Below the pieces are notes generated by a model. It did no database searches and was not told the DNA's origin. It worked only from the letters and a program-made list of their open reading frames with translations. Below, one piece after another: positions 3,492-58,709 of a DNA stretch of 64,000 bases. A program made the translations under genes and the position numbers. Source of the DNA: Octopus vulgaris. Lineage: Eukaryota. The stretch covers positions 96,286,001 through 96,350,000 of the forward strand of contig OX597820.1 of assembly GCA_951406725.2 (NCBI GenBank), in the 5' to 3' direction. Numbering within the stretch: position 1 is the first letter of the stretch; each line of letters begins with the position of its first letter.

Positions 3492-4263
3492 TATGTGTGT
3501 GTGTGTTATTTCATAATAGAGTACCATTAAGTTCTGATACATTTAGAAACGTCATGAAGATACAAAAAATGTATACTATTTAGAAACTTTTCATAACTTA
3601 CGTTGCCGAAGGTAAGATGATTAAAGAGATCTATCACATTTATGTTTTTTTTTTCTTACTGTTTGTCTAACAGAATTCAGATGATGTCGCTTTGTAAATT
3701 GGTTTGCGGAAAAAGAAAATATTTTCGTATTACACAATGTAAACATAGTAAGATAGGGGAAAGAGAAAAAGCAATAACAAATATGAGTATTTATGTTAAT
3801 AATAATTCTTTCCCAAAAGCACAATTCCATGAAGTAAACATAATTTCTGCATATGTTCCTACTCTCATGACAACAAAAACTTACGAAATATGAAAACAAC
3901 GTAACATATTGAAACTAAGGACTTTCGGGTAGGAAAATATTATAGAACCAGTGTTATTATACAATTATGACAAGTACGTATGCTTGTATGTGTGTATGTA
4001 TGTAAATATGTATGTATGTATGTATGTAGGTATCTATCTATCTGTCTATCTACCGATCGATCGATCGATCTATTTGTCTATCTACATGTCTAACTTTTTT
4101 ATCATTATATATATATATATATATAAATTAGGGTATCTGAGAGATACCACCATGCTAAAATAGCAGTCAAAACCCTAACCCTAAAAGCACCTTAAATGTC
4201 CATATCACACCAGGAGAGAAGACATAGAGACAAAATAAACTAGCAAAAATATTTTACTGGATA

Positions 4264-4322
4264 ATTCAAGATCCTGGATTTCTGGCTTTGCCTCAGTAAA
4301 ACTCTGCCTTCTTCAGTTGAAT
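4264..4322 (-). ncRNA. Type I hammerhead ribozyme
   Basis: Minus strand: AUUCAA-CUGAAGA-A GGC...GCC A-GAAA-UCC A GGA-U-C-UUGAAU; 6-bp stem I, near-palindromic stem III, AUC triplet; within a short insert (~4127-4350) between (TA)n tracts. Confidence 0.75.
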
Positions 4323-4345
4323 ATACCAGATAGGCACATAAATAC

Positions 4346-4403
<58 letters not shown>

Positions 4404-4494
4404 CATACGTTATACTTACATATACGAACGCTCATACATACATATATATACACGTATGTACAAGGCCAGGTTAACTTGCCCGCCAAACATATAC

Positions 4495-4589
<95 letters not shown>

Positions 4590-4811
4590 TCAATATAGGG
4601 TGGCAAAAAAATTTTGTAGAATTCTTTTGCCACCAGCGGCCTAGTAGGAAAAAATTAAAATAGTCATAGACCATTTTTAAGTTTAACATCAACAATAAAG
4701 GAACGGCCATAATAGGCCATTCACCCACTAGAAATAACAGCCAAAGCTTCAACCGCAAATAAAAGTTAATTCAGTAAACCAGGAGAAAATTTAAAAAACA
4801 TTTACCCTGTA

Positions 4812-4918
4812 ATTTCTTATACGATATACCGTTTCATCTGCTGATTAATGGTAAACTAACCTGATTAAATTAAATCAAGCCAATCTTCCACAGGCCCTCA
4901 GATTCGTCAGTAAGAAAT
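4812..4918 (-). ncRNA. Type I hammerhead ribozyme, copy 1 of array
   Basis: AUUUCUUA-CUGACGA-AUCUG...CAGAU-GAAA-CGGU AU AUCG-U-A-UAAGAAAU; 8-bp stem I, stem II extended by a GU-rich hairpin, GUA triplet (cut between 4820 and 4819). Confidence 0.85.
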
Positions 4919-5301
4919 AGCCCAAGACGGAACAGATATTTTCACGAGGCATTTCCGACGTTGCCAAGTTTATATCTGACCTAAAATTTTCAAATCGTCG
5001 CACTCGCGCCAAATTTATCGGCAGCAAATAAATATAAGCCGTCGATTCCATTACGGAATTAGCCAGAAAATTCATAATTAATCAATATAGGGTGGCAAAA
5101 AAATTTTGTAGAATTCTTTGCCACCAGCGGCCTAGTAGGAAAAAATTAAAATAGTCATAGACCATTTTTAAGTTTAACATCAACAATAAAGGAACGGCCA
5201 TAATAGGCCATTCACCCACTAGAAATAACAGCCAAAGCTTCAACCGCAAATAAAAGTTAATTCAGTAAACCAGGAGAAAATTTAAAAACATTTACCCTGT
5301 A

Positions 5302-5408
5302 ATTTCTTATACGATATACCGTTTCATCTGCTGATTAATGGTAAACTAACCTGATTAAATTAAATCAAGCCAATCTTCCACAGGCCCTCAGATTCGTCAG
5401 TAAGAAAT
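5302..5408 (-). ncRNA. Type I hammerhead ribozyme, copy 2 of array
   Basis: Same sequence as 4812-4918, offset 490 bp. Confidence 0.85.
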
Positions 5409-5824
5409 AGCCCAAGACGGAACAGATATTTTCACGAGGCATTTCCGACGTTGCCAAGTTTATATCTGACCTAAAATTTTCAAATCGTCGCACTCGCGCC
5501 AAATTTATCGGCAGCAAATAAATATAAGCCGTCGATTCCATTACGGAATTAGCCAGAAAATTCATAATTAATCAATATAGGGTGGCAAAAAAATTTTGTA
5601 GAATTCTTTTGCCACCAGCGGCCTAGTAGGAAAAAATTAAAATAGTCATAGACCATTTTTAAGTTTAACATCAACAATAAAGGAACGGCCATAATAGGCC
5701 ATTCACCCACTAGAAATAACAGCCAAAGCTTCAACCGCAAATAAAAGTTAATTCAGTAAACCAGGAGAAAATTTAAAAAACATTTACCCTGTATATATAT
5801 ATATATAGAAGAAAGAAGAAGAAG

Positions 5825-6156
5825 ACCCCCTTCGGTCATGAATGACCATGGGATTGCACCTAGAAAGTTACCCTCCTAGACACAAGTCCGGGCAAGGTTG
5901 TTTATGGAAGACCAGCAGTCGCCCATGCATACCAGCCTCCCCTCTCCACACCACCAGTGTTATCCAAGGGAAAGACAAAGGTCGATACAGCTTGGCACCA
6001 GTGACGTCGCAACTCATTTCTACAGCTGAGTGAACTGGAGCAACGTGAAATAAAGTGCCTTGCTCAAGAACACAACACGCAGCCCGGTCCGGGATTCGAG
6101 CTCACAACCTCACGATCGTAAGCTCGACGCTCTAACCACTGAGCCATGCGCCTCCA
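5825..6156 (-). mobile_element. tRNA-derived SINE (family B)
   Basis: Minus-strand head with A box TGGCTCAGTGG and B-box-like GCTCGAATCC, followed by TTGAGCAAGGCACTTTA...TCACTCAGCTGTA central domain. Confidence 0.8.
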
Positions 6157-6568: not shown

Positions 6569-6570
<2 letters not shown>

Positions 6571-6973
6571 GAAATAGAAAGATGAATAATCTTGTTGCAG
6601 ATTAATCAAAAGTTTAACCGATACCTTGGTAGCAAAAATCACAGCAGAAGACAGCACGGTTGGAGGTACAACCATATGGTGTTGCAACCGTGCATTGGTG
6701 CGGATAATTGAATTTTAATATTATTAGTGAATTGAAGAAAACAGTTTGGCCATGGGCTCTTAGGAGCCTCGTTCGATTTGTTTTGCTCCGCCTCTGTTCT
6801 GTTTTTGTTTTTTCCAACGGATTTCCTATTTCTTCCTGAAGAGAAAGACACAATATGGTCCCCTTATTCAATCGGAATTTGGTAAATTGTGCCTTTCGAA
6901 ACACGTGTAGAATGCAATAAAACGATTTCTGTTCAATCTTCGTTCAACTCCATTTCTTCAATTCACTATTAAA

Positions 6974-6976
<3 letters not shown>
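6569..6976. mobile_element. TA-inserted non-coding element (family P1) with partial internal inversion; Penelope pLTR-like
   Basis: Near-identical to parts of 35711-36383; left part is inverted relative to the right, with a short overlapping IR (~6719-6741 vs ~6953-6976); (TA)n on both sides. Confidence 0.75.
6827..6919 (+). ncRNA. Type I hammerhead ribozyme (family P1)
   Basis: UUC-CUGAAGA-GAAAGACACAAU...AUUGUGCCUUUC-GAAA-CACGUG-U-A-GAA; 12-bp stem II with one mismatch, palindromic ACACGUGU stem III, GUA; stem I only 3 bp plus distal UAUU/AAUA. Confidence 0.7.
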
Positions 6977-7040
<64 letters not shown>

Positions 7041-35636: not shown

Positions 35637-35712
<76 letters not shown>

Positions 35713-35915
35713 GAAATAGAAAGATGAATAATCTTGTTGCAGATTAATCAAAAGTTTAACCGATACCTTGGTAGCAAAAATCACAGCAGAAGACAGCACG
35801 GTTGGAGGTACAACCATATGGTGTTGCAACCGTGCGTTGGTGCGGATAATTGAATTTTAATATTATTAGTGAATTGAAGAAATGGAGTTGAACGAAGATT
35901 GAACAGAAATCGTTT

Positions 35916-36008
35916 TATTGCATTCTACACGTGTTTCGAAAGGCACAATTTACCATATTCTGATTGAATAAGGAGACCATATTGTGTCTTTCTCTTCAGG
36001 AAGAAATA
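35916..36008 (-). ncRNA. Type I hammerhead ribozyme (family P1, left arm)
   Basis: Same fold as 6827-6919. Confidence 0.7.
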
Positions 36009-36085
36009 GGAATTCCTTAGGAGCCTCCTCGTTCGATTTGTTTTGCTGCGCCTCTGTTCTGTTTTTGTTCTGCCAACGGAATTCC

Positions 36086-36178
36086 TATTTCTTCCTGAAG
36101 AGAAAGACACAATATGGTCTCCTTATTCAATCGGAATTTGGTAAATTGTGGCTTTCGAAACACGTGTAGAATGCAATA
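36086..36178 (+). ncRNA. Type I hammerhead ribozyme (family P1, right arm)
   Basis: CUGAAGA at 36095, GAAA-CACGUG-UA at 36157-36168. Confidence 0.7.
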
Positions 36179-36395
36179 AAAGGATTTCTGTTCAATCGTC
36201 GTTCAACTCCATTTCTTCAATTCATTAATAATATTAAAATTCAATTATCCGCACCAACGCACGGTTGCAACACCATATGGTTGTACCTCCAACCGTGCTT
36301 TCTTCTGCTGTGATTTTTGCTACCAAGGTATCGGTTAAACTTTTGATTAATCTGCAACAAGATTATTCATCTTTCTATTTCACCAAACATATATA

Positions 36396-36461
<66 letters not shown>

Positions 36462-40121: not shown

Positions 40122-40784
40122 AAAATAAATATAAGAGAGTGGTCACTATATGGCTCACTCTAGCACCAGTTAATCCAAAAGGTTTCAACCACAAAAATGT
40201 GCATTGCCTTCTTTTATCCTTGAAACTTTGCAAGTGAAGGTGTTTAACAACAATGAAAGCATTCACTGCTCTTATATCAATCATGTTGTAGAATATAAAC
40301 ACAGGCCATCTTCGAGTCATTCTTTTGCAAGTGTATGTTCTTTCTAATTGTTCCAACTAAAGTAGTTTTCTTGCTAAGCAGCTTTCAAGCCAATCCTAGA
40401 CTTGTAAGGAAATTATCACAAGTTATACTGTGTCCAGTATTTTCAAGTTCTTTTACTATGTCTTCAACAACTCTTGAACATTGATTTGTCTTTCCCCCTT
40501 TTACTGGGGATGTTTCCAGTGTAGATTTGCATTTTCCTGGCATAACATGTTTCACTGTCGTATATTGCCCAAATTTTAATTCCATATTTCCCTAGTTTTG
40601 AAGGAACCCCGAATGAGCAGCGCCTTCTGAGCCATATAGTGACCACTCTCTTATATTTATTTTGTAAAAATATTATAATATATTATAAAATATTATAATA
40701 ATCCAGGTTTCTCGGAGCACTAGGCCACTTGGTGTAGAATAGATATACTATTAAATTAGTATCTAATTCTCTCACCCTTATTAA

Positions 40785-40930: not shown

Positions 40931-42207
40931 GCCATGGACAAATGTTGAAGATAGGGTTGATTAAAAAGATAAATGGAAGGAAATTCATCACTCTGAACTA
41001 AAGAAATTTATTGGACTGATTATTCTTATAGGTGTTTATAAATCTAACCATGAAAATGTCACACAGTTACGAAGTCAAGAAGATGGCCACCTAATACTCA
41101 ACAAAATTATGAGCCGGGGAAGATTTCAACAGATTTTACAAGATTTTGCCTTTTGATGATGCTAGTGCAAGAAGAAAAAAGAGAAGTGATGATGAATTGG
41201 AACTCATAAGAGAAGTATTTGAAATGTGGAATCAGAATTTGCAAGATGGATATGTTCCAAGTTGGTGCATGACAATTGATGAACAATAAGTTTTATTCAG
41301 AAGGCGCTGCTCATTCGGGGTTCCTTCAAAACTAGGGAAATATGGAATTAAAATTTGGGCAATATACGACAGTGAAACATGTTATGCCAGGAAAATGCAA
41401 ATCTACACTGGAAACATCCCCAGTAAAAGGGGGAAAGACAAATCAATGTTCAAGAGTTGTTGAAGACATAGTAAAAGAACTTGAAAATACTGGACACAGT
41501 ATAACTTGTGATAATTTCCTTACAAGTCTAGGATTGGCTTGAAAGCTGCTTAGCAAGAAAACTACTTTAGTTGGAACAATTAGAAAGAACATACACTTGC
41601 AAAAGAATGACTCGAAGATGGCCTGTGTTTATATTCTACAACATGATTGATATAAGAGCAGTGAATGCTTTCATTGTTGTTAAACACCTTCACTTGCAAA
41701 GTTTCAAGGATAAAAGAAGGCAATGCCTAATTCAGTTAGGAAAGGAACTTGCTGAAGTTAATGCTAAAGAAGAACATGACAAACAATCTTCTAGTTCCGC
41801 TAACATTTCTCAACCAAACAAGAAAAGAAGACGATCTTCAACCTCATTTGAGATTCCTCAGCCAAAGAAAAAAGGAAGATGTTCTTTGTGCGACCCCAAA
41901 AAAGACAGGAAGACTCGTACTACATGTAAGAATTGTAATATCCATGTTTGCCAAGAACAATCCAATGTCGTCAGCATTCCCTGCCATGAGAGCTGTAATT
42001 CAGTATTTTTATAATTTTTTAAATTTATGATATATTCTGTAAGCTGTACTTTTTTGTTAAAATTTGTTAGAAACAATAATTCTTCAGTCACCTGATAGCT
42101 AAGAAATAGCTAGTTTGAATAAAATTTAATTAAAAGAAAAATATTGGGTTCATTGGACCCAGTTGGTACTTAGTGACATACATTTTCTCTGGTAGACCAA
42201 GGGTTAA
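40931..42207 (+). mobile_element. piggyBac transposon remnant: right end and degenerate transposase
   Basis: ELKKFIGLIIL, MTIDEQ*, PSKLGKYGIKIW, ITCDNF, RRWP, C-terminal Cys-rich KGRCSLC...CKNC..HVC; ends GGG-TTAA at 42201-42207. Confidence 0.9.
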
Positions 42208-57980: not shown

Positions 57981-58440
57981 CTGATTGTATACGTGCGTCT
58001 ACAAGTATATATAATACAATTGACAAATTAATACCTTAAGACATTTGAAAATAACACGTCATACCTTTGCTGACGGTAGTAAAAGAAGACTCCTAAATGT
58101 CATCAATATTTTTAATGCTTCAGAACATCATCAACATCCGAGCTACTTTGCTTATAAACATCGAAACACATTTACGATTTCTTTAAACAACCAATGAGGA
58201 AAATATCTCGTCATCTAATATAACGCTTAGATTTGACAGCCAAAAACACAATTTGTATCCGGAGGTGGAATGTATCATTCACAAATTTATTTCAAAACGG
58301 GGGTTAAATATGTTTGCAAGTATCAACATATATTAATATGTATATGCATGTATACACGAGTCTATTTGCATTTATATATACATATATGATATATGAGTAG
58401 AAAAAAGAAATATATATATACATACATATATATATATATG

Positions 58441-58701
58441 TTGAAATAGAAAGATGAATTCTCTTGTTACAGATTATTCAAAAGTTTAACCGATACTTGG
58501 GTAGCAAAAATCACAGCAGAAAAAAGCACGGTTGGAGATAAGACCATTTGGTGTTGCAACCGTGTGTTGGTACGGATAATTGAAGTTTAATATTATTAGT
58601 GAATGGAAGAAATGGAGTTGAACGGAGATTGTACAGAATTCCTTTTATATATAAAAGGAATTCTGTACAATCTTCGTTCAACTCCATTTCTTCCATTCAC
58701 T

Positions 58702-58709
<8 letters not shown>
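58441..58709. mobile_element. Diverged family P1 copy ending in a spacerless 120-bp palindrome
   Basis: Homologous to 35711-35915; 58590-58709 is palindromic with one mismatch, centre TATATA. Confidence 0.85.

What the first reader, a model, noticed from the sequence alone, without database searches (positions are those of the whole stretch)
4585..5793. 2.4-copy 490-bp ribozyme array whose 5' end lies about 8 nt after the predicted cleavage site
Seen: near-identical head-to-tail units, each full one containing an intact minus-strand hammerhead. The predicted cuts (4820/4819 and 5310/5309) release a 490-nt monomer. The array's minus-strand start (5793, TACAGGGTAAATG) falls about 8 nt downstream of where a third cut would be. 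The extended stem II is rich in G-U pairs only on the minus strand. Inference: the template was a self-cleaved multimeric or circular RNA copied around more than once, as proposed for retrozymes, and the insertion is recent.
Basis: partly seen in the sequence, partly recalled or inferred. Interest (0 to 1): 0.88.

Follow-up and report, generated by a model that had tools for sequence, protein, structure and literature searches.

The report
Penelope-copied hammerhead retrozyme with cut footprint
This is one of hundreds of young copies of a roughly 492-base non-coding repeat with a hammerhead ribozyme motif, and across the genome the copies' ends pile up just after the predicted self-cut and at two fixed start points, which likely records a Penelope-like jumping gene copying self-cut linear and circular RNAs into TA repeats.

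Summary
In detail: 2.46 near-identical units on the minus strand, two intact type I hammerheads, cuts at 4820/4819 and 5310/5309, and a 5' end 8 nt past a third cut. It is one copy of a young family in (TA)n (155 loci mapped). Their 3' ends sit at two fixed unit positions (about 131 and 231-240). 110 loci are head-to-head pairs with one end of each kind, the anatomy of Penelope-like elements (PLEs). 5' ends pile up 1-30 nt after the cut: 64 of 259 versus 18 expected, repeated in a 65%-identical sister family (14 of 35). An active Neptune-type PLE in the same genome shows the same pairing, but its 5' ends cluster 30 nt after a TATA-like box, not at its own minimal hammerhead. One sister-family arm is fused head-to-head with that PLE. 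The variable core base is never mixed within a locus (0 of 57), so each array likely came from one monomer, probably a circle. Verdict: a new member of the non-LTR retrozymes, with unusually direct genomic evidence for its life cycle. Expression and cleavage are untested; this copy's own 8-nt offset is about 50:50 signal or chance.

The parts
4489..4586 (.). (TA)n tract at the element's 3' end: the inferred nicked target and primer side
   Evidence: 254 of 264 canonical family 3' ends abut (TA)>=4
4585..5793 (-). single arm of the retrozyme, 2.46 units; 3' end at unit position 233 (long 'tailed' start site), 5' end at position 9
4812..4918 (-). type I hammerhead 1 (core CUGACGA at 4910-4904, predicted cut 4820/4819)
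   Evidence: stems covary across subfamilies
5302..5408 (-). type I hammerhead 2 (core at 5400-5394, predicted cut 5310/5309)
4820..5309 (-). predicted cut-to-cut monomer (490 nt here, 492-493 in most copies); candidate circle
   Evidence: circular fold -131 kcal/mol, z -4.1 against 25 shuffles
5179..5179 (-). unit position 131, the family's second (short) fixed 3' start site; not used as an end in this copy
   Evidence: 104 of 288 arms end exactly here; 196 exact end-plus-TA matches in the genome
5792..5807 (.). (TA)8 joined directly to the 5' end; no inverted second arm at this locus

Best explanation
The array is a non-coding tandem repeat with a type I hammerhead motif in each unit, inserted in a TA microsatellite, and it is likely a non-LTR retrozyme whose RNA would cut itself into ~492-nt monomers, partly close into circles, and be copied back into DNA by a Neptune-type Penelope-like element. 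Shown by sequence: intact covarying hammerheads; two fixed 3' ends; head-to-head arms that always carry one end of each kind; (TA)n flanks; 5' ends piled up just after the cut; one allele set per locus; one arm fused with a PLE arm. Inferred: the PLE protein nicks both strands of (TA)n and starts reverse transcription at unit position ~131 from one nick and 231-240 from the other, usually on the same RNA. On a cut linear monomer both cDNAs run off at the cut and lose 0-28 nt; on a ligated circle they run several laps. The two cDNA ends then join through short homology or filler. The window copy is a one-armed product that passed the junction twice and stopped 8 nt short of the third.
For: Hammerhead: 96.7% of cells paired, 14 of 35 pairs with changes on both sides across 11 variants from subfamilies A-D. 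5 changes in about 4,000 core letters, while the free N7 base takes all four letters. Anatomy: all 110 two-ended loci are head-to-head and short+long, with none short+short or long+long. Cut footprint: 64 of 259 versus 18.2, p 6e-19; first approach 47 of 236 (20%) versus 0-4.8% in 16 other first-lap 30-nt windows, including those over stronger hairpins; subfamily C 14 of 35, p 1e-7. Both arms stop near the cut together in 19 of 109 loci, odds ratio 14.6. One template: N7 mismatch between opposite arms in 0 of 43 loci versus 14 expected; divergence 0.29% within an arm, 0.30% between opposite arms, 0.89% between loci. 389 of 391 internal junctions are length-exact. The window's 248C occurs in both of its laps and in none of the other 73 loci covering that base. 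Partner: a PLE with RVT_1 + C-terminal GIY-YIG and a CX4CXXC linker, 917 exact end matches, tailed+untailed arm pairs in 9 of 9, and one fusion with a subfamily-C arm. Method control: that PLE's 5' ends cluster at a TATA-predicted start (6 of 18) and 0 of 30 lie at its minimal hammerhead cut.
Against: No RNA evidence: expression, cleavage and circles were not observed. The pile-up is not significant in the 38 loci chosen for full-length units (7 versus 4.5, p 0.16) and only modest on later laps (7.7% versus up to 7.5% in a control window). No PLE fusion was seen in 155 subfamily A/B loci, so the partner is shown only for subfamily C, by one event assembled twice. The unit has no DNA similarity to the PLE termini tested. 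The PLE also forms three-unit arrays (4,271-nt period) without a cut footprint, so multi-unit arrays alone do not prove circles. The longest arrays carry repeated private variants that fit later DNA-level duplication (L127, L128, L065). Three fusions of different RNAs (L269, L075, L146) show that the two arms need not share one template.
Confidence: 0.72

Rival explanations
1. Same element and same PLE machinery, but no circle: templates are linear, partly cleaved multimers of existing arrays, and arrays are kept long and uniform by unequal exchange at the DNA level or by exact template jumps between monomers.
For: Later-lap stops near the cut (17 of 222) fit a linear multimer with a cut 5' end. 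Repeated private variants occur in long arrays. PLE trimers exist without a cut footprint.
Against: Four N7 alleles are each fixed within loci, with 0 of 57 A and 0 of 28 B multi-ribozyme loci mixed; 96 shared variants are fixed in a locus versus 8 in some units only. This needs a monomer bottleneck. 389 of 391 junctions are exact, whereas RT template jumps are usually untidy (recalled). Lap numbers fall off smoothly from 0 to 9.
Confidence: 0.17
2. The 5' pile-up marks a transcription start site, or a reverse-transcriptase stall at stem I or at a ligation scar, rather than run-off from a self-cut RNA.
For: In the autonomous PLE the pile-up does lie at a promoter-like start. The 8 missing bases here equal the 3' strand of stem I. 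Ends spread over positions 1-28, not at 1.
Against: No TATAWAW or TATTTATA 20-40 nt before the cut in A, B or C. The edge tracks the cut in families only 65% alike. Stronger hairpins on the first lap cause no pile-up. The PLE's own run-off ends show the same 0-22-nt loss.
Confidence: 0.08
3. The array at this locus is an assembly duplication, or a satellite that grew locally from one old unit.
For: Units differ only by homopolymer indels. The DNA runs laid here are contigs and none spans the locus.
Against: Multi-unit arms are the family norm on at least 15 chromosomes-scale contigs, with fixed ends and TA flanks. The unit is held by DNA-labelled runs of several studies at very high depth.
Confidence: 0.03

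Closest known systems
Metazoan non-LTR retrozymes (Cervera and de la Pena 2020, PMC7229834, passages read; Li, Clavereau and Pollet 2026, bioRxiv 10.64898/2026.07.22.740005, parts 1-3 of 5 read, supplements not seen)
   Same: Non-coding, low-GC tandem units, each with a canonical type I hammerhead; dimers to multimers; dispersed; coexisting PLEs proposed as mobilisers.
   Different: Unit 492 nt (above the 170-400 nt of the 2020 paper, inside the 51-972 bp of the 2026 preprint), with a long stem II extension. Those papers infer the PLE link from co-occurrence and pLTR similarity. Here there is no similarity to the PLE termini tested, but there are fixed start sites, head-to-head arms, a cut footprint and a PLE fusion. 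RNA circles were shown there and not here.
EN+ Penelope-like elements, Neptune/Nematis type (Craig et al. 2021, PMC8557442, passages and section 15; Arkhipova et al. 2013, PMC3846280, passages; Cervera and de la Pena 2014, PMC4209133, passages)
   Same: 5' truncation, partial tandems, inverted 5'-truncated arm, a tail on one end only, (TA)n bias, hammerhead about 130-140 nt before the short end.
   Different: No ORF. The tail is about 100-110 nt rather than 30-40. The hammerhead is canonical rather than minimal. The 2013 paper reads head-to-head joints as self-priming on an antisense template; the strict short+long pairing here fits two primed cDNAs better.
Anolis Poseidon element PAc in vitro (Frangieh et al. 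2024, PMC11167929, parts 1-2 of 4 read)
   Same: Reverse transcription starts at two internal sites that bound the tail; both target strands are cut and extended; AT-rich target; predicted dimer.
   Different: There the start site did not differ between strands, uncut RNA was the main substrate and no reads ended at the hammerhead cut. Here each insertion uses one site per arm and ends pile up at the cut.
L1 twin priming (recalled, not read here)
   Same: Two cDNAs primed on opposite nicks join head-to-head through short homology.
   Different: In L1 the second priming site varies; here both sites are fixed and arms can exceed one unit.

Membership tests
non-LTR retrozyme | tandem units of a few hundred bp, each with a canonical type I hammerhead | tested here: met
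non-LTR retrozyme | non-coding, GC below 50%, no LTR | tested here: met
   region GC 0.34; no ORF of 250 aa or more within any array; ends are TA-flanked, not LTRs. PBS and PPT were not searched for.
non-LTR retrozyme | dispersed mobile copies | tested here: met
   958 candidates, 246 matches in 39 scored; 550 matches to an internal 23-mer
non-LTR retrozyme | expressed as linear and circular RNA | not testable with these tools
   runs are held as contigs, and those marked RNA are guesses; contigs show no ends or circles
non-LTR retrozyme | RNA self-cleaves | tested here: inconclusive
   only indirect: covariation and 5'-end footprint; no assay
PLE-mobilised non-autonomous element | 5'-truncated, partial tandem and inverted head-to-head insertions with a tail on one end | tested here: met
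   110 of 110 two-ended loci
PLE-mobilised non-autonomous element | microsatellite target shared with an active PLE in the genome | tested here: met
   254 of 264 ends in (TA)n; PLE ends in (TA)n
PLE-mobilised non-autonomous element | sequence similarity to the pLTR of an autonomous PLE | tested here: not met
   no blastn match to 20 GIY-YIG loci or 30 PLE termini; other PLE families in the genome were not examined
PLE-mobilised non-autonomous element | direct link to a PLE in one insertion | tested here: inconclusive
   one event for subfamily C; none in 155 A/B loci
autonomous PLE | RT + GIY-YIG ORF | tested here: not met
   no tblastn hit of the 775-aa ORF in the window
Naiad clade (as partner) | N-terminal GIY-YIG, no canonical hammerhead | tested here: not met
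   the linked PLE has GIY-YIG at residues 687-773, after RT; Naiads were not searched for in the genome

The most novel reading that the evidence does not exclude
This genome records the whole retrozyme cycle in vivo. A Neptune-type PLE dimer grips one ribozyme-made RNA at two fixed sites and copies it from both strands of a nicked (TA)n target at once. Self-cut linear monomers give short double-armed inserts that stop at the cut; ligated circles give multi-lap arms. This would explain PLE inverted repeats, tails and second-strand synthesis in one step, and show that a canonical hammerhead cuts in the germ line while the PLE's own minimal one does not.
Probability: 0.5. Interest if true: 0.82.

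Novelty: new member of a known kind. Interest (0 to 1): 0.66.

Why it matters
The papers read here leave open what hammerheads do for PLEs and retrozymes, whether circles are the copied template, which element mobilises animal retrozymes, and how head-to-head PLE insertions form. This family answers each with counts from natural insertions. It also supplies a matched pair for the bench: a very young PLE with an intact ORF and hundreds of identical ends, and a small passenger RNA with predicted start sites. An RT that copies a small circle several times into TA repeats could also interest genome-writing work.

Tried and rejected
Rfam at gathering score: nothing. Three loci from the 18-mer core search (L123, L124, L126) were chance matches in another repeat and were dropped. 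GIY-YIG family search for a PLE with similar termini: 20 of 148 matches examined, no similarity. L150 looked like a PLE carrying the short end but is a separate neighbour. The PLEs beside L079 and L095 are read as separate insertions into the same or a nearby TA tract, not co-insertions. Laying four DNA-type runs on 4150-6150 could not test copy number or an empty site, since all are short repeat contigs. Fillers of 10 nt or more are only weakly enriched at near-cut joints (10 of 38 versus 7 of 63, p 0.06). No tRNA gene in the window. A Naiad partner was first suspected from (TA)n targeting; the linked PLE has a C-terminal endonuclease. Earlier-scan look-ups by place and by sequence returned nothing.

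Full report
1. Observation. Its units differ only at two homopolymer runs, and the only two full hammerheads in the window lie in it, on the minus strand, with cuts after 4820 and 5310. The 5' end is unit position 9 counted from the cut; the 3' end is position 233; both touch (TA)n. Stem II carries 7 G-U among 25 pairs on the minus strand. Most copies elsewhere are 492-493 nt, so 490 is probably an assembly slip.

2. The ribozyme is under selection. The genome holds subfamilies A (98-99% to the window), B (91%) and C (65%, same period), plus a further variant at L091. Across 11 hand-picked distinct variants, 96.7% of cells pair and 14 of 35 pairs change on both sides, above all slid controls (the rows are related, so the shuffle counts are not probabilities). 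In about 360 A/B units the 11 fixed core letters changed five times in all, while N7 takes A, U, G or C.

3. Family anatomy. I fetched 158 loci: 38 best matches, 49 from an internal 23-mer on the first three contigs, 9 from the window's rare core allele and 62 from the short end plus TA. Three were chance matches and one a duplicate. With the window that leaves 155 loci. Of 288 arms, 134 end at positions 125-135 and 132 at 224-245. The 62-locus set has the short end by construction; the other sets do not. 254 of 264 such ends abut (TA)n. All 110 loci with two such ends are head-to-head with one short and one long end; 44 have one. In 101 simple pairs the arms overlap by 1-4 nt in 47 and carry a filler of 10 nt or more in 17. 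This is the tail-on-one-end, inverted anatomy described for PLEs, and the two ends match the two internal RT start sites shown for PAc, though 100 nt apart rather than 30-40.

4. I kept 262 arms, dropping 22 without a canonical 3' end, 2 duplicates, 1 next to Ns and 1 mis-split; 259 were long enough to count. 64 end at positions 1-30 against 18.2 expected from exposure, p 6e-19. By set: 7 versus 4.5 (best matches, not significant), 15 versus 5.4, and 41 versus 7.8. On first approach 47 of 236 arms stop there; 16 other first-lap windows give 0-4.8%, including those over longer hairpins. On later approaches 17 of 222 stop (7.7%, p 0.003 against the pooled 3.6%), but one control window reaches 7.5%. 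The window copy is such a later stop, so roughly even odds that its own offset is signal. Subfamily C, sampled by pattern (27 loci), gives 14 of 35 after removing two duplicates.

5. Control from the autonomous element. A PLE with RVT_1, a CX4CXXC linker and C-terminal GIY-YIG (Neptune/Nematis type by the motif) has 917 exact end matches. Its two-armed copies pair an untailed end (selected by my query) with a 30-nt-tailed end in 9 of 9. Of 30 ends taken in genome order, none has its 5' end 1-30 nt after its minimal hammerhead cut. Instead 6 of the 18 ends seen lie 29-51 nt after the start of a TATA-like box, 0.56 expected (bin chosen after seeing the data). So insertions do record RNA 5' ends with a 0-25-nt loss. 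For the retrozyme that end is the cut, with no TATA upstream in A, B or C.

6. One monomer per insertion. N7 is uniform in 57 of 57 A and 28 of 28 B loci with two or more ribozymes, and equal between opposite arms in 43 of 43 (14 mismatches expected). Subfamily A divergence is 0.29% within arms, 0.30% between arms and 0.89% between loci. Junctions are length-exact in 389 of 391. A circle explains this most simply. Against it: the PLE also makes three-unit arrays, and L127, L128 and L065 show repeated private variants that fit later duplication.

7. Partner. L269 (G000:C57; the same joint at L313 on C13) is a subfamily-C arm with the short end, fused head-to-head over 3 nt to a 5'-truncated PLE arm with the tailed end, both ends in (TA)n. 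That is the geometry of one event. No such fusion was seen in A/B loci, and the unit shows no similarity to the PLE termini tested. Extension to the window's subfamily rests on homology and shared end positions. L075 and L146 are fusions with other hammerhead-like repeats, so two RNAs can be used at times.

8. Known and new. The class is known, and circular templates for more-than-unit copying were proposed in 2014. Craig et al. call hammerhead function in PLEs unclear, and Frangieh et al. saw no reads at the cut. Seven searches found no paper that maps retrozyme insertion ends to the cut, reports strict short+long pairing, or shows a retrozyme-PLE fusion. The library lacks most subscription journals, Repbase and Dfam were not searched, and unseen supplements of the 2026 preprint and the 2020 paper may bear on this.

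9. Verdict. A real, young non-LTR retrozyme (class about 0.95 likely); full mechanism 0.72; interest 0.66, for the testable mechanism rather than for the element type.

Noticed in passing
window 35682-36411, 6569-6981, 58410-58709: A second hammerhead-like family in (TA)n. The 35.7-36.4 kb copy is two head-to-head arms with cores at 35999 (-) and 36095 (+); the 6.6-7.0 kb copy has a core at 6836 (+). Stem I is only 3 bp by my scan.
   Followed up: partly
window 40201-40630 and 41297-41726: A 430-nt perfect inverted repeat inside what reads like a broken piggyBac-type transposase (recalled resemblance, not tested).
   Followed up: no
L095:3371-3422 (PLE coordinates), L323-L352: The autonomous PLE's 5' ends cluster about 30 nt after a TATTTATA box, giving a candidate promoter and start site; its hammerhead has a CCGAAGA core.
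   Followed up: partly
L195, L200 and other places: A second young PLE family with a 781-residue open frame in many copies, also ending in (TA)n, with a tail of about 36 nt.
   Followed up: partly
L075:3560-4092; L146:1103-1190: Retrozyme arms fused head-to-head with other hammerhead-like repeats; the L075 partner has a tandem unit of about 356 nt and a CCGAUGA core.
   Followed up: partly
L034, L138, L187 joints: Fillers made of reiterated TAAATTTT-like copies of unit positions 16-33, as if the cDNA end slipped repeatedly at the template end.
   Followed up: no
L037, L066, L115, L151, L307: A few arms end 8-11 nt beyond the cut, at the palindromic loop of stem III; no excess over expectation.
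   Followed up: partly
L105: About 500 nt of unrelated sequence captured between a short-end arm and a fragment of the long end.
   Followed up: no
window 5830-6150: A very high-copy repeat right of the array (depth in the millions; matches in 23 fetched loci), probably a SINE-like element.
   Followed up: no
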